Source: a virus
Virus record (IMG/VR): IMGVR_UViG_3300030116_004830
Span: 1-64,000 of that record
Reading direction: 5' to 3' (one strand)
Length of the DNA: 64,000 nucleotides
Position 1 is the stretch's first letter, and each line of letters begins with the position of its first letter. The notes under the pieces were generated by a model, which saw nothing but the letters and a program-made list of their open reading frames with translations, had not been told where the DNA came from and ran no database searches. This document shows, piece by piece, positions 8,370 through 22,023 of the stretch. Both the position numbers and the translations under genes were made by a program.

Positions 8370-8681
8370 ATGTTACAAAGTAAAACAAGAAGAGTAATCA
8401 AAGAACAACATCAAAAGTATGTAGATTACGGGTTATACCTATGGTATTTGACTTATGGCGATGAACCCTTTAGGTCCAAGGATATTCTTTGGATGGCTAA
8501 AGATAATGCTGATGATTACTTTAGATTAAGTGGGACTTATCTTAAGTTTCACATGAGAAACATGCCTACTGCTTACGCAACAGGAAGATATTTGTCTTCT
8601 TTGAACTATATCGAAAACGTAAGTAAAAGAAATGCGGCATGGAAAATAAATGTAGAAAAATATGAACAAGAGGTGATATAA
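8370..8681 (+). CDS. hypothetical protein
   Basis: TAATG coupling to rfcS. Confidence 0.65.
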   Translation: MLQSKTRRVIKEQHQKYVDYGLYLWYLTYGDEPFRSKDILWMAKDNADDYFRLSGTYLKFHMRNMPTAYATGRYLSSLNYIENVSKRNAAWKINVEKYEQEVI

Positions 8682-9619
8682 TGTTATGGACAGAAAAATA
8701 CAGACCGAAGAATATACATCAATTAATTGGACAAGAGTTATTCAAACTCGATGCTGAGAATTGGATAGAGAATAAGGAAATGCCTAATCTACTATTGTAT
8801 GGTGGAGCAGGAGTTGGAAAAACTACTGCCGCAGGTATTCTAGCAAATGAGATGCTAGGCACAGAAATTGATTCAAATTATTTTGAAATCAATGCTAGTG
8901 ATGATAGGAGATTAGAGGTAGTAAGAACTACCATCAAAGATATTGCTCAACAGAGAGCAATAGGTGAAGTTCCTTTCAAGATAGTATTACTAGATGAAAT
9001 GGATGGAATGACTCCTGATGCTCAGAATGCATTAAAGAGAATTATGGAAAGATACGAAAATAATGTTAGATTTATTATTACCGCTAATGATAGAAGTAGG
9101 ATTATCTATCCTCTTCAATCTAGATGTGCTAACTACTTCTTTTCTAATTTAGAAAACACTACAATTTTGAGTTTATTGCAAACAATTCTCAGACAGGAAC
9201 AAATTTCAAATCCGCCATCCGAGAGTGACTTGGGCGGGTTTATAACCCACTACAACGGTGATGTTCGTAGAACGATAACGGAAATGCAAGCCGCACTTGC
9301 AAGTGGACTGAGTTTGAGAAAACAATCAGAAAAGAGTTTGGAGAAATACGATAAAATCTTAGGATTGTTAAGCGAAGGAAATCACAATAAAGCATTAGAA
9401 GAATTACACAATGCCCTATATTCTGGAAAAACTGTAAAAGATATTTGTAATGGATTACACGAAGTTATTGTTAAAAGTGAAATTGAAGACAATTTGAAAT
9501 TCAAATATCTTAGAGCAGTAGGTGAATCAGAATGGAGAGGCAATTCAATGACCCCAAGAGTGCTAGTATCTTGGTTGGTATCTCAAATGAGAACTCAAGA
9601 TTCTCAAAGGAGAGTATAA
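8681..9619 (+). CDS. rfcS: replication factor C small subunit (clamp loader)
   Basis: WTEKYRP, GGAGVGKTT, EINASD, LLDEMD, LQSRC. Confidence 0.95.
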   Translation: MLWTEKYRPKNIHQLIGQELFKLDAENWIENKEMPNLLLYGGAGVGKTTAAGILANEMLGTEIDSNYFEINASDDRRLEVVRTTIKDIAQQRAIGEVPFKIVLLDEMDGMTPDAQNALKRIMERYENNVRFIITANDRSRIIYPLQSRCANYFFSNLENTTILSLLQTILRQEQISNPPSESDLGGFITHYNGDVRRTITEMQAALASGLSLRKQSEKSLEKYDKILGLLSEGNHNKALEELHNALYSGKTVKDICNGLHEVIVKSEIEDNLKFKYLRAVGESEWRGNSMTPRVLVSWLVSQMRTQDSQRRV

Positions 9620-12067: not shown

Positions 12068-12844
12068 ATGCAAATTCAAGTAAACAAACAAGATATAATT
12101 GAGGCCATGAAAAATGTAGAACTCAAAGGAAAATGGGCGACAACGAGTGGACTATCTTCAAAATCTTTAGGTAAATATATTCAATTTCAATTAAGAGATA
12201 ATCAATTATTGTTAATCAATTCAGATGAATCGACTACTGCAATAAAGGCTATTCCTGTAGAAACAGAAGATACTGGTTCCTTTGTTTTAGATATTGAAAT
12301 GATGAAAAAGTATCTTACTAAAATGAATGATGATATTCTATTTGAAGTTGGAGATACCATAGTAATGAAGTCAGATGGTAAGAGGGCTACTATGCCTATA
12401 GTAGTTGAACATCCTTTTCATGGTAGAATCGAAAGGTTTGTGGCTCAATGGCCAATAGCCTTTGAAGAAGATTTAACGAGAATACCTACAATTGGTAGTA
12501 TCGAGTTTAACTGTGGTATTCAATTAACCGCAGATGAACTTCATAGTGCCATTGATGCTTGTGAAATAGTAAACAATGGTATCTATAAATTAGATTTTAG
12601 AGAGGCTGATGAAGTTAGTCGGCCTAAATTTATTATATCCTCTGAACAAACAATTTCCTCTTATAGGGAAGAAGTTTCTTTTTCTAATGTTATCGGAGAA
12701 GGAGCAACGGTATTGTTTAGTGGTCCTATGCACAAGTTCTTTGGAAAGAAAGATATTGTGAATATTTTCATTGGGGATGACCAACCCATTGTAATGATAA
12801 CAGAAAATAGCGCTTTGGTTCGTGCGCCAAGAATGGGTGTTTAA
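12068..12844 (+). CDS. pcn: DNA sliding clamp (PCNA-like)
   Basis: About 258 aa, two-domain clamp-like pattern, C-terminal LVRAPR (compare PCNA LAPR); sits next to RFC and PolB; AAGGTGA RBS. Confidence 0.8.
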   Translation: MQIQVNKQDIIEAMKNVELKGKWATTSGLSSKSLGKYIQFQLRDNQLLLINSDESTTAIKAIPVETEDTGSFVLDIEMMKKYLTKMNDDILFEVGDTIVMKSDGKRATMPIVVEHPFHGRIERFVAQWPIAFEEDLTRIPTIGSIEFNCGIQLTADELHSAIDACEIVNNGIYKLDFREADEVSRPKFIISSEQTISSYREEVSFSNVIGEGATVLFSGPMHKFFGKKDIVNIFIGDDQPIVMITENSALVRAPRMGV

Positions 12845-12845
12845 G

Positions 12846-14513
12846 ATGATAATTAGTTTTGTAGATTCAGATAAGACCATCAAGATTAGATGGAGAGATG
12901 AGAATAGAGAAAGAATGGAGAAATCAATTGAAGGCTTTAACCCTTATTTCTTTATTCGTTCTACAGATAAAAGACCTGAAACATACAAAACATCTCATAA
13001 GATTATAGGTGGTAAATCAGTTAAACAAACTGGATTCTATGAATACCAAACTGGTGATTACAAAAACCTACAAGGTCAATCTTTGACTAAGGTTTACTAT
13101 TCTAATCCTAAAGATAAATACAATGCAGTAAAACCATTTGTCGCTACATGGGAAGGAGATGTTCCTATCTGTCGTAGATATTGCGTAGATGAATTGGAGA
13201 ACGTCCCTGAATATGAGATGAGAAAATGGTATTGGGATATGGAATGGTTGCCTAAAGGCCACGAACATGAAGACGCTATTACTTGTATAGCAGTATATGA
13301 TAATTATACTAGTAAGAGTAAGTTATACACATGGTTTCCTGAACCCGAATTAGGAGAAAATAACGTCAAGTTTTCAGGATATTCGATTTACGATTCCGAA
13401 AAAGAAATGCTTGAATCATTCGTTAATGATTTACAAGAACAAGACCCTGATATGTTGATTGCTTGGTGGGGATTAAAATCAGACGTTCCACAATTGATTA
13501 AGAGAATGTTTGCTAACAAGATAGACCCAAGAAAGTTATCACCACATAAGGAAGTAAAGAATGTAGGATTCAATGCTTTAGGTAGTGTTGAGTATTCTAA
13601 CATTGAACAACCGATTCGTGGTAGGCTATGTTTGAATCTTGATTTGGCTTTTGAGAGGCAATGGATGGATGCTCAAAGAGGAACGCTACCAAGCAACTCA
13701 TTGGATTATTGTGCAAGTGTATCTGTTGGGGAAACTAAGAAGAAAGAATCTAAGTTTACTGATAGGAACGAATTTTTTAATCGAGCATGGTTAGAGGATA
13801 CTCAAAATTATCTTGAGTATTGTCTTCAAGATGCAGAGTTACTACATAAGATAGATGAAGAAATGGGATTGAGTGAAGGTGTATTGGCGGTTCAAAAAAT
13901 TGTGAAAGCACCGTTTGAAGATTGTTTCTTTGTTACCATGATTGCGGCCCCTTATTTCATGAGGAACGCCACATGGAAAGCCCCTACTGGAAAGAAAGGC
14001 GCTAAAGAGAAATACGATGGAGCAATGATTTACAATCCATTAGAAGAAGAAACAAATGGTTTACATCTAGGAGTTGCGGCTTTTGATTTTAGTTCGCTAT
14101 ATCCATCAGTTGCAGTAGCAAGAAATATCTCTTGGGAAACCAAATCCAATGAACCAACAGAGTTTGCAGTTAACATTAGAACACCTAGAAACCTAGGTGA
14201 AACTACTACTGAGGATTGGAGATATTACAAAACAGATGAACTCGGTCTACTACCAAAAATGATTCTAACTCTAAAGCCTCTTAGAAAACAATACAAGAGT
14301 AACATGTTAGAAGCATTACAAAATGGAAACAAGAAAGAATATGTTAAGTGGAACTCTATGCAAATGGCCACTAAAAGGTTACTAGCATCTCTATATGGAG
14401 CAACTGCCGCAGTAGGTTTTGGATGGTATGATTTAGATTTAGCCGCTAGTATTACTGCTAGTGCTAGAGAAGCAATTAGAGAAGCCGCATTTAAGGTGAG
14501 GGAATTAGAATGA
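12846..14513 (+). CDS. polB: family B DNA polymerase, N-terminal part (3'-5' exonuclease, motifs A and B)
   Basis: WDME ExoI, YCLQD ExoIII, DFSSLYPS motif A, KRLLASLYG motif B; ends just before motif C. Confidence 0.93.
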   Translation: MIISFVDSDKTIKIRWRDENRERMEKSIEGFNPYFFIRSTDKRPETYKTSHKIIGGKSVKQTGFYEYQTGDYKNLQGQSLTKVYYSNPKDKYNAVKPFVATWEGDVPICRRYCVDELENVPEYEMRKWYWDMEWLPKGHEHEDAITCIAVYDNYTSKSKLYTWFPEPELGENNVKFSGYSIYDSEKEMLESFVNDLQEQDPDMLIAWWGLKSDVPQLIKRMFANKIDPRKLSPHKEVKNVGFNALGSVEYSNIEQPIRGRLCLNLDLAFERQWMDAQRGTLPSNSLDYCASVSVGETKKKESKFTDRNEFFNRAWLEDTQNYLEYCLQDAELLHKIDEEMGLSEGVLAVQKIVKAPFEDCFFVTMIAAPYFMRNATWKAPTGKKGAKEKYDGAMIYNPLEEETNGLHLGVAAFDFSSLYPSVAVARNISWETKSNEPTEFAVNIRTPRNLGETTTEDWRYYKTDELGLLPKMILTLKPLRKQYKSNMLEALQNGNKKEYVKWNSMQMATKRLLASLYGATAAVGFGWYDLDLAASITASAREAIREAAFKVRELE

Positions 14514-14827
14514 GATTAAATGATTATCAAGGATTAGCAAGAAAAACTGCCTTATACCCAATGGAGGAAGGTTTGACTTATACTGCATTAGGATTATGCG
14601 GAGAAGCAGGTGAAGTTGCTGAGAAAATTAAGAAGTTCATTAGAGGAGATGAAGGAGTTTCTGTTAGAGAAGATTTACTACTAGAATTAGGAGATGTTCT
14701 ATGGTATCTTTCTAATTTGGCTTTTGAATGTGGCTATACTCTACAAGCAGTAGCAGAGGCTAACATCGAAAAACTAGACAATAGAAAGAAAAATAATACT
14801 ATCAAAGGCAGTGGTGATAAAAGATGA
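14510..14827 (+). CDS. mazG: MazG-like nucleotide pyrophosphohydrolase
   Basis: GLCGEAGEVAEKIKK...ELGDVLWY...NIEKL..R...GSGDKR. Confidence 0.92.
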   Translation: MRLNDYQGLARKTALYPMEEGLTYTALGLCGEAGEVAEKIKKFIRGDEGVSVREDLLLELGDVLWYLSNLAFECGYTLQAVAEANIEKLDNRKKNNTIKGSGDKR

Positions 14828-14949
14828 ATAGAATGTTCAAATGTAAACATTGCAATAAAATTGGTATGTCTGAACATTACATGAGATGTGTCCATTGTTA
14901 TGCTACAATGTCTAAGGATGAACTAAAGGAGTTGATAAAATGCAAATAG
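14824..14949 (+). CDS. 41-aa zinc-ribbon microprotein (not in ORF track)
   Basis: MNRMFKCKHCNKIGMSEHYMRCVHCYATMSKDELKELIKCK; ATGA overlap with mazG. Confidence 0.6.
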   Translation: MNRMFKCKHCNKIGMSEHYMRCVHCYATMSKDELKELIKCK

Positions 14950-15869
14950 TTTACGCACATACAGATTCACTATATGTTCCCGTTCCCTCTATAGAGAAGG
15001 CACTAGAAGTTAGAGAGGTATTGAATGACCACATTCAAGAAAATGTATTTCCTAATATTATGGGTTTAGAAAATCATCCTATGGATTTAGAGTTTGAAAA
15101 ATATTATTCGGTCTTAGGAGTAGGAGCCACAAAGAATAGAAATGCAGGTTTTATCTCTTGGAAAGATGGAGTGCATTTACACGAACCTGAGTTTTTCGCT
15201 ACAGGGTTTTCATTGAAGAGAATTGCTGAATCTAAGATTGCAAAGGATACTCAGAAAGAAGTCATAGAGATGTGGGTTAAACAGAAAACGGAAGATGAGA
15301 TAACAGAAAGAGTCAGAAGTATTTTTACAGATGTCCTAGAAGGCAGAGTTGAGAAATTAGACCTTGTTAAAAGAAGTAGATATAAGGACGAAAGAAAATA
15401 TCTAAAATGCAGATGTAAAAGAAAATACGATGTAGAATACGTTAGAAAGTTACTTCGTATAGTTCCTGATGCGTTATGTGAAAACGATAATTGTAACGCT
15501 AGGCTATCGGAACTTACTACATTAGAAGGTAAAAGACCTTCCTTTGGTGGAGGGTTCGCAGGAGTATTGTATTACAATGAACATGTAAAACCTCAAGATA
15601 AAATTGATGATTCCTTTTATCATATGAAATGTAAATTCAATGGTATGGTTCAACCAAATACCTTTACTAACATAAAAGGTGAATCTAAATCTGCGGGTTA
15701 TATTGCAGTAAAGAACTTAAATGAACTAGAAAATTACGAACCCGACTGGCCCTCGTTAGCCGAATCGGAAGTTCTCAAAAAAGCCAAGCCCATTTACGAT
15801 GCAATGGGTTGGGATATTAACGAAGTAAGAAAAGACAAAAAACAAAAAGAATTGGATGAGTGGTTTTAA
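14940..15869 (+). CDS. polB: family B DNA polymerase, C-terminal part (motif C, thumb, PIP box)
   Basis: YAHTDS motif C variant, LEFEK, KNRNAG (KKRY equivalent), C-terminal QKELDEWF PIP box; own AAGGAG RBS. Confidence 0.9.
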   Translation: MQIVYAHTDSLYVPVPSIEKALEVREVLNDHIQENVFPNIMGLENHPMDLEFEKYYSVLGVGATKNRNAGFISWKDGVHLHEPEFFATGFSLKRIAESKIAKDTQKEVIEMWVKQKTEDEITERVRSIFTDVLEGRVEKLDLVKRSRYKDERKYLKCRCKRKYDVEYVRKLLRIVPDALCENDNCNARLSELTTLEGKRPSFGGGFAGVLYYNEHVKPQDKIDDSFYHMKCKFNGMVQPNTFTNIKGESKSAGYIAVKNLNELENYEPDWPSLAESEVLKKAKPIYDAMGWDINEVRKDKKQKELDEWF

Positions 15870-16732
15870 TGAGTGAATATACATATCAATGGAATGCCGA
15901 ATGGATGAACGACCCTACTATGCCTTTATTGAAGGTAACAAAATCTTCACTGAATACTTTTGAGTTCTGTAGAAAACAATATGAGTTTCAATACATAGAA
16001 GGCAGAAGGTCTGAACCTAATGCGGCTATGGCTAGAGGTTCAACAGTTCACAATGCTTACGAAGATTTCTACAATGAATTTGAACTTAAGAAAGCAGAAG
16101 AAATGGATGAGAACTTATTGTATGAATATTGTATAGGTCTTTTTCCTATAGACGATTATGGTGAAGTGTATCAAAAGATGTCTGCGTTTGAAACTGAAAG
16201 ATTCTTGAAATCAAAGTCAGCAAATACTTTGCCTACATATTTACCAGTTGGTAACGAAATTAGATGTAACGCCCAACTAGAGATTAGTAGTTATGCAGGG
16301 GCTAAAGGTAGAAAGCCTCATTTTCATCTTAAGAGAGATTACACTGTTCATCTTCAAGGTATTATTGATAGAGTATTCCAAGAAGGAGAAGGTTACATCC
16401 CTGTTGAATTAAAAACAGGTATTTGGAAAGATAGAAAGCAATCTCACATGAGGAACGAAATGGCCTTCTACAAAGTCCTGATGGATGCAGACCCCGATGT
16501 TAGTATGGACCCTATTACTCATTGGGCATGGTATTATCCTGATTCTAATTATTTTCAATTGGAACCAATTAAGCCGCTTAATGAAAACAATATACCTAAG
16601 AGAATTGCTAAGTTGATTAAGGCTTACGAAGACAACAGGTTCCCCGCCTCGTATTTTCCTAAGAAATGCGAACATTGTTCATTTATAGGATTGTGCGACT
16701 CGGCGCAACAAGCGGAGTTATGGGATTGGTGA
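15869..16732 (+). CDS. solo Cas4-like PD-(D/E)xK exonuclease with 4Fe-4S cysteines
   Basis: N-terminal FCRKQ, GSTVH, GIID, ELKTG, C-terminal CEHCSFIGLC; ends QAELWDW. Confidence 0.85.
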   Translation: MSEYTYQWNAEWMNDPTMPLLKVTKSSLNTFEFCRKQYEFQYIEGRRSEPNAAMARGSTVHNAYEDFYNEFELKKAEEMDENLLYEYCIGLFPIDDYGEVYQKMSAFETERFLKSKSANTLPTYLPVGNEIRCNAQLEISSYAGAKGRKPHFHLKRDYTVHLQGIIDRVFQEGEGYIPVELKTGIWKDRKQSHMRNEMAFYKVLMDADPDVSMDPITHWAWYYPDSNYFQLEPIKPLNENNIPKRIAKLIKAYEDNRFPASYFPKKCEHCSFIGLCDSAQQAELWDW

Positions 16733-17579: not shown

Positions 17580-17738
17580 ATGAGTTGGCTTAAAGAGAAA
17601 AACAAAAGAAGTTACGAGGAAGCCCAATATAGACGGGCTATTTACAGAGAAATAATATCAGCCGAATATTTCTTTCTAAAGGACTATATGTTTACCTTTG
17701 AATTAAAAGACGGCAAACTAATAAGGGTGAAAGAATGA
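17580..17738 (+). CDS. 52-aa hypothetical protein (not in ORF track)
   Basis: MSWLKEKNKRSYEEAQYRR...KLIRVKE; GAGG RBS; ATGA overlap with primase. Confidence 0.5.
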   Translation: MSWLKEKNKRSYEEAQYRRAIYREIISAEYFFLKDYMFTFELKDGKLIRVKE

Positions 17739-18841
17739 AGTTTCCTAGAGAAGTATGGCCAAGTGCTAACAAACAAACTAATACTTTTGCTAGTAAGAGA
17801 AAGTTGGTTCATAGTAAAGAAGAGTTCGACTCTTGGGTTAAGACCCATAATGGAAAAATGAACTGTTATACATCAGTATATGATTATGCTCAATACACCC
17901 ATAAACAAGCAGTAACGGACACCGTTATTCTTGATAGAGTGTTTCTAGATTTTGACGCTCATCATGGTGAAGTAGATAGCAGGACTGGGGCGCAAACAAT
18001 TAGTGAAGCACAGATTCAATTATGTTTAGATGATTTGCTAGATGTTTCAGTTTATTTAGAAGAGAAGGACTATTGCTATGATATTTCATTTTCAGGGAGA
18101 GGATTTCATGTATATGTGTATGGTAATATTATTCCTGTAAATCAGATTCGCAGGTTGACCGCATTCTTTAATGAAATGAAAGAGTTAACCTCTAATGGAA
18201 CTTTAGATAGTTCAGCGATTTCACCTAGAAGATTGAGGCGTATTCGTAATACTATGAACCTGAAAGCGTCTTATGGTGACGGTTGTTACTATTCAATACC
18301 ACTATCAATAGACGACATCAGAAACAAAACTGTTAGTCAGATTTTAGAATTAGCAAAAAGACCCGAAGGGGTATCCATTAGATATGGTTCTACATTAGTT
18401 AATTGGCCACAAGTTCCTGAAATTAAAGAATCAGAGATTGAAGCAGAAGTTATCAATGCAGGTAACTTACCTCTTCCACCATGCATGTATAGTGCTATTA
18501 TGGTTGAGAATCCAACTGATGAAGCAAGAGCATATCTTGTTAGTTGGTATAAGGACCTATTACTATGGTCAGATTTCAATGTAGGTTTTACAGAAACACA
18601 AGTTACTCCAAACATGTCCACTAGATTGAATATCATAAATCAGATTACGGCTGAGATAAAACACTTACATGAAACACATAATGTATGGTTAGATTTTGAT
18701 GAAGCCATAACAAAATACAGAGTTGGTTTTGTAGTTAATGGAAACTATAATTTCCCTAATTGTGATAAACTGATTGCTAATGGATACTGTATCGGAACAT
18801 GTTGGAGATTAAAGGATTACACAAAGGAGATGAAAGAATGA
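17735..18841 (+). CDS. archaeo-eukaryotic primase, PriS catalytic domain fused to PriL-like Fe-S domain
   Basis: FLDFD motif I, SGRGFH motif II, PPC and C-terminal C-x8-C-x3-C cluster. Confidence 0.85.
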   Translation: MKFPREVWPSANKQTNTFASKRKLVHSKEEFDSWVKTHNGKMNCYTSVYDYAQYTHKQAVTDTVILDRVFLDFDAHHGEVDSRTGAQTISEAQIQLCLDDLLDVSVYLEEKDYCYDISFSGRGFHVYVYGNIIPVNQIRRLTAFFNEMKELTSNGTLDSSAISPRRLRRIRNTMNLKASYGDGCYYSIPLSIDDIRNKTVSQILELAKRPEGVSIRYGSTLVNWPQVPEIKESEIEAEVINAGNLPLPPCMYSAIMVENPTDEARAYLVSWYKDLLLWSDFNVGFTETQVTPNMSTRLNIINQITAEIKHLHETHNVWLDFDEAITKYRVGFVVNGNYNFPNCDKLIANGYCIGTCWRLKDYTKEMKE

Positions 18842-18924
18842 GACAAACTACGTTATTTGAATTTGGATTAAGAATAGAAGGACAAACTACACTAGAAGAT
18901 TTTGGGTTAGTATTTGAGGAATAA
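18838..18924 (+). CDS. 28-aa tandem PIP-box microprotein (not in ORF track)
   Basis: MRQTTLFEFGLRIEGQTTLEDFGLVFEE; AAGGAG RBS; ATGA overlap with primase stop; fills the gap exactly. Confidence 0.7.
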   Translation: MRQTTLFEFGLRIEGQTTLEDFGLVFEE

Positions 18925-18926
18925 AT

Positions 18927-19622
18927 ATGAAGTTAATTATTGATAGCAGAGAAACTTCGGGTCTTACCAATGAAGTAGAAATTAAAGCCGCTAAACTCAA
19001 TTTAGTTACCGAGAAGAAGTGGCTAGAGGTAGGAGATTATGTCTTTGGAGATGTATGCTTTGAAGCAAAATCTACACATGATTTTCTATCGTCTGTTATC
19101 AGTAAGAGATTATGGACCCAATTAGATAACATGGATAGATGCTACAAAACGAATGTAGTAATTATCTATGGTTCTTTGAGAGATGCATTAAGTTATACTA
19201 GTTATTCTGCTAAGTATAACAATATGCCTAGACAAAGAAAAATGCAATTACTTACTAACAAATTCTATGGAGCAATAGGTAGAATCATTCTTGATTCTGA
19301 TATTAAACCTATATGGGTAATAGACGAATATGCGGCGGCATCTATTATTTGTAGCGTTGCTAAGATGCAACCAATTGAAAGGTCGCCAATTAAACCCCAT
19401 CTGTTTAAGAGATTTACAACAGATGATATTAGATTAAACATGTTAGCATCAATTAAAGGTGTTAGCGAAAAGAAAGCAAAATTATTGCTAGAAAAGTTCG
19501 GTTCTCTTATGGAGATAGGAGATTGCGATAAAAGAGAATTATGTTCTCTAGATGGTATTGGAGATACTACTGCTGATAGGATACTATCAGCCTTTAACTC
19601 AGACAAGGAGGTTAGACAATGA
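18927..19622 (+). CDS. ERCC4/XPF-family structure-specific nuclease with HhH domain
   Basis: IIDSRE, VGDY, EAKS..DF, tandem HhH (IKGVSEKKA, LDGIGDTTA). Confidence 0.92.
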   Translation: MKLIIDSRETSGLTNEVEIKAAKLNLVTEKKWLEVGDYVFGDVCFEAKSTHDFLSSVISKRLWTQLDNMDRCYKTNVVIIYGSLRDALSYTSYSAKYNNMPRQRKMQLLTNKFYGAIGRIILDSDIKPIWVIDEYAAASIICSVAKMQPIERSPIKPHLFKRFTTDDIRLNMLASIKGVSEKKAKLLLEKFGSLMEIGDCDKRELCSLDGIGDTTADRILSAFNSDKEVRQ

Positions 19623-21193: not shown

Positions 21194-21427
21194 ATGAAAG
21201 TAACATGGGAAAATAAGTATGTGGTTTTTGATGTTAATGATGGACCTAAAACCATGATTGACGCACTGAACCTAGAGGGAGCAGAAGGATGGGAGGTAGC
21301 ATCTATTGTTAGCGTAGCAGGTAACAAATTATGTGCCTTCCTGAAAAGAGGGGACTATATTATGGAACCTTCTCCTGAAGAGGAAAAGAGAGATGAAGTG
21401 CTGAAATTATGGGGCGGAAAGGAATGA
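21194..21427 (+). CDS. DUF4177-like small protein
   Basis: LNLEGAEGWEV...FLKR pattern. Confidence 0.65.
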   Translation: MKVTWENKYVVFDVNDGPKTMIDALNLEGAEGWEVASIVSVAGNKLCAFLKRGDYIMEPSPEEEKRDEVLKLWGGKE

Positions 21428-22023
21428 ATAATGTCCTTGCAATCGACTTAGAAACCAAGAATCTCTCCACAGATATTGGAGGGTGGGGTAATACCCATAT
21501 GTTTCTTGTATCTACAGTAACTACTTGGAATGGAGATACTGGGACTGTCTATGTAGATGAACCAGTATCGGATACCTTTTCTAAATCAGGAATTCAAACT
21601 AAACCGATTAGAGAACTAAAGTTTGATTTGGATGAACATTTCAAGAAAGGAGGCATTCTATTAGGACACAACATTGTGGCCTTTGACCTACCTGTTCTTA
21701 GAGATGCCTTAGATATTTATTGTATTAGAAAATACATTACCAATAAACAGTATATTGATACTAGCCAGTATTTTGTTTCCAATCATGGCGAGAGATATTC
21801 ATTGAATAATCTAGTAGACCATACTTTAGGAAAACAAAAAACACTAAGCAGTATGGACGCTCCTAAACTATGGAAGGCAGGGGAATACGATATTGTCGTA
21901 GATTATTGTCTAAAGGATTCACAATTAGTTTATGACCTATGGAAACATGGACAAGATAATGGTGTTGTAAAGGCATTCAATATTAATGAAGAAAAAGAAA
22001 TAACAATGGAGGTGGAATGGTAA
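21424..22023 (+). CDS. RNase H-fold DEDD 3'-5' exonuclease
   Basis: IDLET, GHNIVAFD, YCLKD. Confidence 0.85.
   Translation: MNNVLAIDLETKNLSTDIGGWGNTHMFLVSTVTTWNGDTGTVYVDEPVSDTFSKSGIQTKPIRELKFDLDEHFKKGGILLGHNIVAFDLPVLRDALDIYCIRKYITNKQYIDTSQYFVSNHGERYSLNNLVDHTLGKQKTLSSMDAPKLWKAGEYDIVVDYCLKDSQLVYDLWKHGQDNGVVKAFNINEEKEITMEVEW

What the first reader, a model, noticed from the sequence alone, without database searches (positions are those of the whole stretch)
18838..18924. 28-aa microprotein consisting of two tandem PCNA-interacting (PIP) boxes
Missed by the ORF track: MRQTTLFEFGLRIEGQTTLEDFGLVFEE. It has two copies of Q-T-T-L-x-x-F-G-L, matching the archaeal PIP consensus QxxLxxF(F), and nothing else. 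It has its own RBS and is coupled to primase. Inference: a bivalent clamp-binding peptide that blocks host PCNA (p21-like host replication shut-off) or regulates the viral clamp.
Basis: partly seen in the sequence, partly recalled or inferred. Interest (0 to 1): 0.75.

Follow-up and report, generated by a model that had tools for sequence, protein, structure and literature searches.

The report
Viral mini-protein of two clamp-docking motifs
A tailed virus of abundant ocean archaea encodes a real, conserved 28-residue protein that is little more than two copies of the tail its own DNA polymerase carries for docking on the sliding clamp, so it probably works by occupying a clamp's docking pocket, although binding is untested.

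Summary
Window 18838-18924 (+) is a 28-codon ORF with an ATGA overlap on the primase stop and GGAG 9 nt upstream. It holds two Q-T-T-L-x-x-F-G-L units 13 residues apart.

It is a real gene. There are 32 distinct core variants in more than 50 magrovirus-type contigs, and synonymous changes outnumber replacements between close pairs. The start codon is kept in three different frame relations to the primase. It forms a family of 27-52 aa stand-alone proteins with no fused form found and no match in 596 Gb of cellular genomes.

New here: the units have the same flavour, Q-[TKRM]-[TS]-L-x-[DE]-aromatic, as the C-terminal tail of the virus's own PolB (QKELDEWF). In a third lineage the gene sits directly after a PolB that lacks that tail.

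The gene is accessory. Five complete relatives carry the viral PCNA-fold clamp but not the gene.

Best reading: a free decoy for the clamp's docking pocket. Binding, and whether the target is the viral or the host clamp, are untested; the complex prediction gave no verdict. Two units 13 residues apart cannot reach two pockets of one ring.

This scan has reported look-alike double-PIP mini-proteins after polB in other marine archaeal viruses.

The parts
18838..18924 (+). 28-codon micro-ORF (tandem PIP-like mini-protein) including the TAA stop
   Evidence: Conserved as a separate ORF in more than 50 contigs. The A4 profile hits only this place in the whole 87.6-kb genome, E=2e-18.
18826..18829 (+). 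GGAG Shine-Dalgarno-like site 9 nt before the ATG
   Evidence: GGAG/GGAGG lies 8-12 nt upstream in most of the lineages checked (not in L117 or L217; differently placed in L218 and L242). This includes lineages where the ORF sits in an intergenic gap (L116, L119).
18844..18870 (+). Unit 1, QTTLFEFGL. Family consensus: Q-[TKMLR]-T-L-[FYD]-[ED]-[FYW]-G-[LM]
   Evidence: Q, T and L are invariant and G is present in 31 of 32 distinct variants.
18883..18909 (+). Unit 2, QTTLEDFGL. Family consensus: Q-[TMS]-[TSKQ]-[LI]-x-[DE]-[FYW]-x-x
   Evidence: In relatives it is a canonical PIP box (QTQLTDFF, QTQLTDFY).
17735..18841 (+). AEP-type primase (368 aa); its stop overlaps the micro-ORF start
   Evidence: PHROG primase E=1.4e-10. 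AF2 model pLDDT 72; all top Foldseek hits are AEP primases at modest scores. DxD and SGxGFH motifs are visible in the translation.
18927..19622 (+). Short XPF-type nuclease (ERCC4 + HhH2) with no PIP tail
   Evidence: Pfam ERCC4 1.7e-14, HHH_5 9.8e-10; C-termini.
12068..12844 (+). Viral PCNA-fold sliding clamp (258 aa)
   Evidence: AF2 pLDDT 92. Foldseek top hits are archaeal PCNAs, TM about 0.7, E=1e-13. No Pfam hit.
14940..15869 (+). PolB C-terminal half
   Evidence: Pfam DNA_pol_B.
15843..15866 (+). C-terminal PIP box of PolB, QKELDEWF, the motif that the micro-ORF units resemble
   Evidence: 28 distinct tails, consensus Q-[TKRMQS]-[TS]-L-x-[ED]-W-[FW] followed by the stop.
12822..14513 (+). 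PolB N-terminal half
   Evidence: Pfam DNA_pol_B and exonuclease domain.
8681..9619 (+). Clamp loader small subunit (RFC-S)
   Evidence: PHROG clamp loader 5.8e-57.

Best explanation
The ORF is a separately translated 28-residue protein of a magrovirus (a tailed virus of Poseidoniales archaea). It consists of two PIP-type clamp-docking units and an acidic end. The units copy the flavour of the C-terminal tail by which the virus's own family-B polymerase should dock on a PCNA-type clamp, but with a weaker anchor: F-G in place of W-F.

The most likely mechanism is competition. The free peptide sits in the hydrophobic docking pocket of a PCNA-type clamp and keeps polymerase or other clients off it, as a decoy or regulator.

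Shown: the gene is real, it is under protein-level selection, the motif is shared with the PolB tail, the virus has its own clamp and loader, and the gene is accessory.

Inferred: binding to a clamp, and competition with clients.

Unresolved: whether the target is the viral clamp, the host PCNA or both. I put this at about even. The motif matches the viral PolB tail, which points to the viral clamp. The patchy, dispensable distribution in a variable slot is more typical of an anti-host gene.
For: 1. Protein-level selection.
- Window vs L097: 5 synonymous and 0 replacement changes in 24 codons. L096 vs L100: 7 vs 1. Mean pN/pS is 0.45.
- Motif positions are invariant while linker positions vary.

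2. A separate gene.
- The ATG is kept in three frame relations to the primase: ATGA, TAATG, and in frame after TAA.
- A GGAG site is present even where the ORF is intergenic.
- The family consists of 27-52 aa stand-alone proteins, and no longer fused form was found.

3. PIP identity.
- The core Q-[TKRM]-[TS]-L-x-[DE]-aromatic is shared with 28 distinct PolB C-terminal tails.
- After the micro-ORFs themselves, the weak next hits of the micro-ORF profile in the loci held include PolB C-termini, E about 0.4.
- Relatives have canonical QxxLxxF[FY] second units.

4. Clamp-centred replisome: PCNA-fold clamp and clamp loader.

5. In lineage C the gene starts on, or just after, the stop of an unsplit PolB that lacks the Q-type tail.

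6. The gene is virus-only.
Against: No binding evidence of any kind exists.

Position 8 is Gly in both units in this window, so the second aromatic of the textbook PIP box is missing.

Five complete relatives have the clamp but not the gene, so it is not needed for clamp function.

A virus competing with its own polymerase needs a rationale, such as timing, client exchange or exclusion of host proteins, and none is shown.

The peptide is acidic, whereas strong PIP peptides usually have basic flanks (from general knowledge).
Confidence: 0.5

Rival explanations
1. Trans-acting adaptor or switch. One unit binds a clamp and the other binds a replisome enzyme that has no PIP tail of its own: the neighbouring primase or XPF here, PolB in lineage C. 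This would tether the enzyme to the clamp or hand the primer over, as the PolD cPIP binds either PCNA or primase.
For: The gene is translationally coupled to the primase and XPF, and neither has a PIP tail. In lineage C it is coupled to a PolB without a Q-type tail. The two units differ consistently: G-L always follows unit 1, while the end of unit 2 varies. [quoted passage not shown] The spacing is too short for two pockets of one ring.
Against: The units resemble the polymerase's own tail, which suggests the same partner rather than a complementary one. No docking site for such a motif is known on this primase or XPF. Most relatives run primase and XPF without the gene.
Confidence: 0.2
2. 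The peptide binds some other partner through the repeated amphipathic unit, for example a host replication or repair protein that is not a clamp. On this reading the PIP likeness is superficial.
For: Gly at position 8 departs from the PIP consensus. No family or structure match was found.
Against: The shared flavour with PolB tails at five positions. Canonical second units occur in relatives. The gene lies in a clamp-centred replication module.
Confidence: 0.15
3. The ORF is only a translational-coupling device or upstream ORF for the XPF gene, and the peptide itself has no function.
For: Tight stop/start overlaps on both sides. Most lineages couple primase directly to XPF.
Against: Residue-specific conservation with synonymous change. 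The same peptide occurs at a different locus, after PolB. A coupling ORF needs no fixed sequence.
Confidence: 0.05
4. It is a frameshift or read-through extension that gives the primase (or PolB) a PIP tail.
For: ATGA overlap in this window; the frame is open for 13 codons upstream.
Against: The frame relation differs between lineages: -1, 0 with a stop, and separated by 60-310 nt containing stops. There is no conserved slippery site. ATG and GGAG are conserved.
Confidence: 0.03

Closest known systems
C-terminal PIP boxes of clamp clients, above all the magrovirus PolB tail (QKELDEWF in this window); also archaeal FEN1, RFC-L and PolB tails
   Same: Q at position 1, Leu at 4, acidic at 6, aromatic at 7, and the T/S preference at 3. 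Same genome and same replication module.
   Different: Here the motif is not the tail of an enzyme. It is the whole protein, and it occurs twice. Positions 7-8 are F-G rather than W-F, and the motif is not at the extreme C-terminus.
p21 (CDKN1A) C-terminal PIP peptide
   Same: A PIP peptide without catalytic function that can block other clients' access to PCNA (PMC6204406).
   Different: p21 is a 164-aa cell-cycle regulator with one strong PIP box and basic flanks (general knowledge). This is a 28-aa viral protein with two weaker, acidic units. There is no homology.
TIP, the Thermococcales inhibitor of PCNA (PDB 5DA7)
   Same: A small protein encoded in an archaeon that targets PCNA through a PIP-like motif (PMC6204406; the 5DA7 clamp chain is among the fold hits of the viral clamp).
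   Different: TIP has a non-canonical PIP followed by a 17-residue helix and breaks the trimer. No sequence match: the profile search of the PDB is empty.
PolD DP2 iPIP and cPIP (Pyrococcus abyssi)
   Same: Two PIP-type motifs in one short stretch. The cPIP binds either PCNA or primase (PMC7101311).
   Different: These are tails of a large polymerase, about 40 residues apart, and lack the Q. Here there is a free peptide with a 4-residue linker.
Phage-encoded clamp binders such as Twort Gp168 (PDB 7EVP)
   Same: A small viral protein that binds a sliding clamp (entry title).
   Different: The target is the bacterial beta clamp and the protein is folded, not a bare tandem motif. There is no homology.

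Membership tests
PIP box (Qxxhxxaa; PMC6204406) | Gln at position 1 | tested here: met
   Invariant in both units in 32 distinct variants.
PIP box (Qxxhxxaa; PMC6204406) | Aliphatic L/I/M at position 4 | tested here: met
   Leu in 32/32 for unit 1; Leu 30 and Ile 2 for unit 2.
PIP box (Qxxhxxaa; PMC6204406) | Aromatic residue at position 7 | tested here: met
   F, Y or W in all variants of both units.
PIP box (Qxxhxxaa; PMC6204406) | Aromatic residue at position 8 | tested here: not met
   Gly in both units of this window. Gly in 31/32 for unit 1. In unit 2, F or Y in only 6 of 32 relatives. The window's units are therefore PIP-like, not canonical.
PIP box (Qxxhxxaa; PMC6204406) | Binds the hydrophobic pocket under the interdomain connector loop of a PCNA | not testable with these tools
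   The one complex prediction gave no verdict, which is not evidence either way. It needs ITC, BLI or a crystal structure.
Clamp inhibitors of the p21 or TIP kind | Sequence or fold homology to p21 or TIP | tested here: not met
   The A4 profile search of all PDB chains found nothing better than E=2.1. No Pfam or PHROG family.
Clamp inhibitors of the p21 or TIP kind | Inhibits clamp-dependent DNA synthesis | not testable with these tools
   Requires a biochemical assay.
Magrovirus tandem-PIP mini-protein family (defined here, alignment A4) | A 27-52 aa stand-alone ORF with M-x(0-5)-Q-x-T-L-x-[DE]-aromatic-G-L, a 4-residue linker ending in G, then Q-x-x-[LI]-x-[DE]-aromatic | tested here: met
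   The window ORF scores E=2e-18 against the profile. Members are listed.
Dual PCNA/primase-binding peptide (PolD cPIP type) | Binds the primase as well as PCNA | not tested
   Only gene adjacency to an AEP primase is seen.

The most novel reading that the evidence does not exclude
The mini-protein is a free, diffusible switch of the viral replisome. Its two non-identical units bind different partners in turn: the clamp and the viral primase (or PolB in lineages whose polymerase lost its own tail). A 28-residue peptide would then coordinate primer hand-off or client exchange on the clamp, a job done in cells by tails built into large polymerases. Alternatively, it cross-links two clamp rings.
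Probability: 0.15. Interest if true: 0.8.

Novelty: new variant of a known kind. Interest (0 to 1): 0.6.

Why it matters
PIP boxes are known as tails of enzymes or of larger regulators. A gene whose whole product is two such boxes, kept across several lineages of one of the most abundant virus groups of the surface ocean, would be the smallest dedicated clamp-directed protein described.

It gives a cheap, direct experiment: a synthetic 28-mer against two recombinant clamps. That experiment addresses how a virus with its own clamp, loader and polymerase keeps its replisome apart from, or imposes it on, that of an uncultured host.

The comparison of gene positions also suggests how such micro-genes arise. 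The gene sits after the primase where PolB keeps its tail, and after PolB where the tail is missing, which points to an origin from polymerase tails.

Tried and rejected
- **Complex prediction.** Viral clamp (alignment A2) plus the window peptide with two extra N-terminal residues (window:18832-18921): ipSAE 0.04 and 0.14, below the mark. No verdict, and not evidence either way.
- **RNA evidence.** Two marine RNA-library runs hold only short contigs of relatives over the primase 3' part (18454-18801). Nothing covers the micro-ORF, so this says nothing.
- **The search for homologous proteins.** The 28-mer is too short. The 41-aa open frame searched against longer proteins found no fused form, which is weak evidence.
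- **The look-up of encoding contigs.** Contexts of the P0051-P0064 family members were recovered through DNA pattern scans instead.
- **Host PIP flavour.** No Poseidoniales genome could be reached. Scans with RFC-S and primase found only mis-binned virus contigs and unrelated archaea. A taxon name is not accepted as a centre.
- **Known families.** Pfam, PHROGs and a PDB profile search found none.
- **Frameshift or read-through fusion to the primase.** Rejected on the varying frame relations.
- **Homology between this ORF and the hydrophobic 29-aa ORF at the same slot in the sister clade.** The DNA alignment was inconclusive.
- **P0063 (585 aa).** The only long hit of the profile search. It is a repeat protein matching half a unit, and I judged it spurious.

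Full report
**1. What is there**

Window 18838-18924 (+) is a 28-codon ORF.
- Its ATG overlaps the TGA of the upstream 368-aa gene as ATGA.
- GGAG lies at 18826-18829.
- The next gene starts 2 nt after the stop.
- The peptide has two units, QTTLFEFGL (residues 3-11) and QTTLEDFGL (16-24), then an acidic end. The units share 20 of 27 nucleotides, which fits an internal duplication.

**2. Context**

The window is the left 64 kb of an 87.6-kb virus record that is 96% complete. Replication genes lie on the + strand up to about 22 kb, and morphogenesis genes lie on the - strand. The content and order match magroviruses, the tailed viruses of Poseidoniales (PMC10768690):
- clamp loader;
- a 258-aa clamp. 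It has no Pfam hit, but the AF2 model has pLDDT 92 and its best fold matches are archaeal PCNAs at TM about 0.7;
- PolB split into two genes, and a Cas4-like nuclease;
- the 368-aa protein upstream of the ORF, an AEP primase. Evidence: a PHROG primase hit and only AEP primases among the fold hits, at modest scores;
- a short XPF nuclease of ERCC4 plus HhH2.

**3. Is it a gene?**

Yes, on four lines of evidence.
- **Spread.** In IMG/VR contigs whose primase is 70-96% identical, the ORF is present with 11 distinct nucleotide versions.
- **Selection.** Between close pairs the changes are mostly synonymous: window vs L097 has 5 synonymous and 0 replacement changes, and L096 vs L100 has 7 vs 1. Mean pN/pS is 0.45. 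Replacements fall on the linker and the x positions of the motif, while Q, T, L, E/D, G and the aromatic residues are fixed.
- **Independent start.** The ATG is kept although the frame relation to the primase changes between lineages: ATGA, TAATG, or in frame directly after TAA. GGAG/GGAGG sits 8-12 nt upstream in most lineages checked, including those where the ORF lies in an intergenic gap. This excludes a frameshift extension of the primase and argues against a mere coupling ORF.
- **A family.** A profile of the peptide, searched against 1.84 billion representative proteins, found 13 further proteins. All are 27-52 aa and stand alone. The only other hit was one spurious repeat protein.

**4. 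Distribution**

- A degenerate 60-nt pattern found 19 IMG/VR contigs and 38 true metagenome contigs. It matched once, unexamined and presumably by chance, in 596 Gb of cellular genomes.
- On a tree of the neighbouring XPF the gene occupies two separate clades, with a minimum of 2 changes.
- Most other lineages join the primase directly to XPF.
- A sister clade has an unrelated hydrophobic 29-aa ORF in the same slot.
- Five complete genomes without the gene at this slot have no copy elsewhere, whereas the window's own genome scores E=2e-18 as a positive control. All five still carry the viral clamp.

The gene is therefore accessory. It is not a core part of the clamp machinery.

**5. What the motif is**

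The decisive comparison is inside the virus. The PolB C-terminal half always ends in a textbook C-terminal PIP box. This window has QKELDEWF, and relatives have QTTLDEWF, QTTLEEWF and QKTLEEWF.
- Over 28 distinct tails the consensus is Q-[TKRMQS]-[TS]-L-x-[ED]-W-[FW].
- Over 32 distinct mini-protein cores, unit 1 is Q-[TKMLR]-T-L-x-[ED]-[FYW]-G-[LM].
- Unit 2 is Q-[TMS]-[TSKQ]-[LI]-x-[DE]-[FYW]-x.

The two share not only the defining Q, L and aromatic positions. They also share the T/S at position 3 and the acid at position 6, which the general PIP consensus (Qxxhxxaa; PMC6204406) leaves free.

After the micro-ORFs themselves, the weak next matches of the mini-protein profile in the loci held include PolB C-termini (E about 0.4). 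Some relatives have fully canonical second units, QTQLTDFF and QTQLTDFY. The systematic difference is the anchor: W-F at the very end of PolB against F-G-L inside the peptide. In this window neither unit has the second aromatic residue, so the units are PIP-like rather than canonical.

**6. A third lineage**

In four metagenome contigs (L217, L218, L225, L242) the same mini-protein does not follow the primase. It follows an unsplit PolB instead.
- In three contigs its start overlaps the PolB stop. In L242 a 47-aa zinc-ribbon ORF lies between.
- Those PolBs lack the Q-type tail and end in P-[RK]-[ND]-L-[FL]-type sequences.
- Their unit 1 often carries Trp at position 7, as PolB tails do.

The link to the primase is therefore lineage-specific. 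The constant link is to the replication module and to the polymerase tail. This fits an origin of the micro-gene from a polymerase tail, though that is not proved.

**7. Mechanism**

*Shown:* a real micro-gene, protein-level constraint on two PIP-like units, mimicry of the virus's own polymerase tail, a virus-encoded PCNA-fold clamp and loader, and dispensability.

*Inferred:* the peptide sits in the docking pocket of a PCNA-type clamp and competes with clients.

Mimicry of the client tail favours a decoy over an adaptor, because an adaptor would be expected to carry a complementary surface rather than a copy.

Two units 13 residues apart span at most about 45 A. Neighbouring pockets are about 70 A apart in P. 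abyssi PCNA (PMC7101311). The two units therefore cannot fill two pockets of one ring. The second unit may raise rebinding, bridge two rings, or bind another partner. The precedent for another partner is the PolD cPIP, which binds either PCNA or primase.

Which clamp is targeted is open. The motif matches the viral PolB tail, which points to the viral clamp. The patchy distribution in a variable slot is what anti-host genes typically show. I could not obtain host sequences to compare.

**8. What failed**

- The one complex prediction gave no verdict.
- RNA libraries did not cover the ORF.

**9. Comparison and novelty**

The peptide works like a PIP peptide of the p21 kind, or a small clamp binder such as TIP or phage Gp168. 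It is homologous to none of them, and I found no paper describing it.

It is a new variant of a known kind: a stand-alone tandem PIP micro-gene.

This scan has already reported look-alike double-PIP mini-proteins directly after polB in other marine archaeal viruses. Those notes agree with lineage C here but are not independent evidence.

What this report adds:
- the primase-linked form;
- the quantitative match to the PolB tail;
- the complementary pattern of tail presence and gene position;
- the geometric limit on bivalent binding;
- the demonstration that the gene is accessory.

Noticed in passing
L024:2880-2999 and L026:2879-2998 (also L009, L010 just after the primase): In the sister clade the slot between primase and XPF holds an unrelated, strongly hydrophobic ORF of about 29 aa (a likely membrane mini-protein) instead of the PIP mini-protein. 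The slot looks like a hotspot for micro-genes. The DNA alignment could not show whether the two ORFs are related.
   Followed up: partly
window 16709-16729 (end of the Cas4-like nuclease, 15860-16732): The PD-(D/E)XK nuclease ends in QQAELWDW. Relatives end in A-Q-E-D-T-W-V or similar, a conserved Q...W C-terminal tail that may be a second kind of clamp-docking motif.
   Followed up: partly
window 22000-22020 (end of the 204-aa exonuclease, 21409-22023): The DnaQ-like exonuclease ends in ...MEVEW. All relatives seen end in [LM]-E-[VL]-x-W, another conserved Trp-terminal tail in the replication module.
   Followed up: no
P0060, P0061, P0064: Some family members carry a third conserved piece after the two units, L-Y-[AT]-S-Q-x-P-P, which suggests a further partner in those lineages. 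Their genomic context could not be fetched.
   Followed up: no
L013:2520-2998: In the closest relative (96-98% identical neighbours), two extra small Cys-rich ORFs (93 and 66 aa, CxxC pairs) are inserted between the mini-protein and XPF.
   Followed up: no
L242:2022-2165 and L242:2266-2576: Lineage C surrounds the mini-protein with several zinc-ribbon-like ORFs of 42-60 aa with CxxC...CxxC. One of them is coupled by ATGA to the mini-protein start.
   Followed up: no
window 12068-12844: By sequence profile the viral clamp matches only bacterial beta-clamp domains (1vpk, E=9e-6). Its predicted fold is closest to archaeal PCNAs, and it hits no Pfam PCNA model. Unit 1 of the mini-protein also reads Q-x-x-L-F, like the bacterial clamp-binding pentapeptide QL[SD]LF (from memory).
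   Followed up: partly
window 14510-14827: A 105-aa ORF of unknown function sits between the two halves of the split PolB, with overlapping stop and start.
   Followed up: no
L113, L133, L134, L213 (NZMJ01000151.1, NZMJ01000161.1) and L214 (JBMTKL010000122.1): Magrovirus-type contigs are binned in public MAGs labelled Maricaulis sp. and Acholeplasmataceae bacterium. These are probably mis-binned viral contigs.
   Followed up: no
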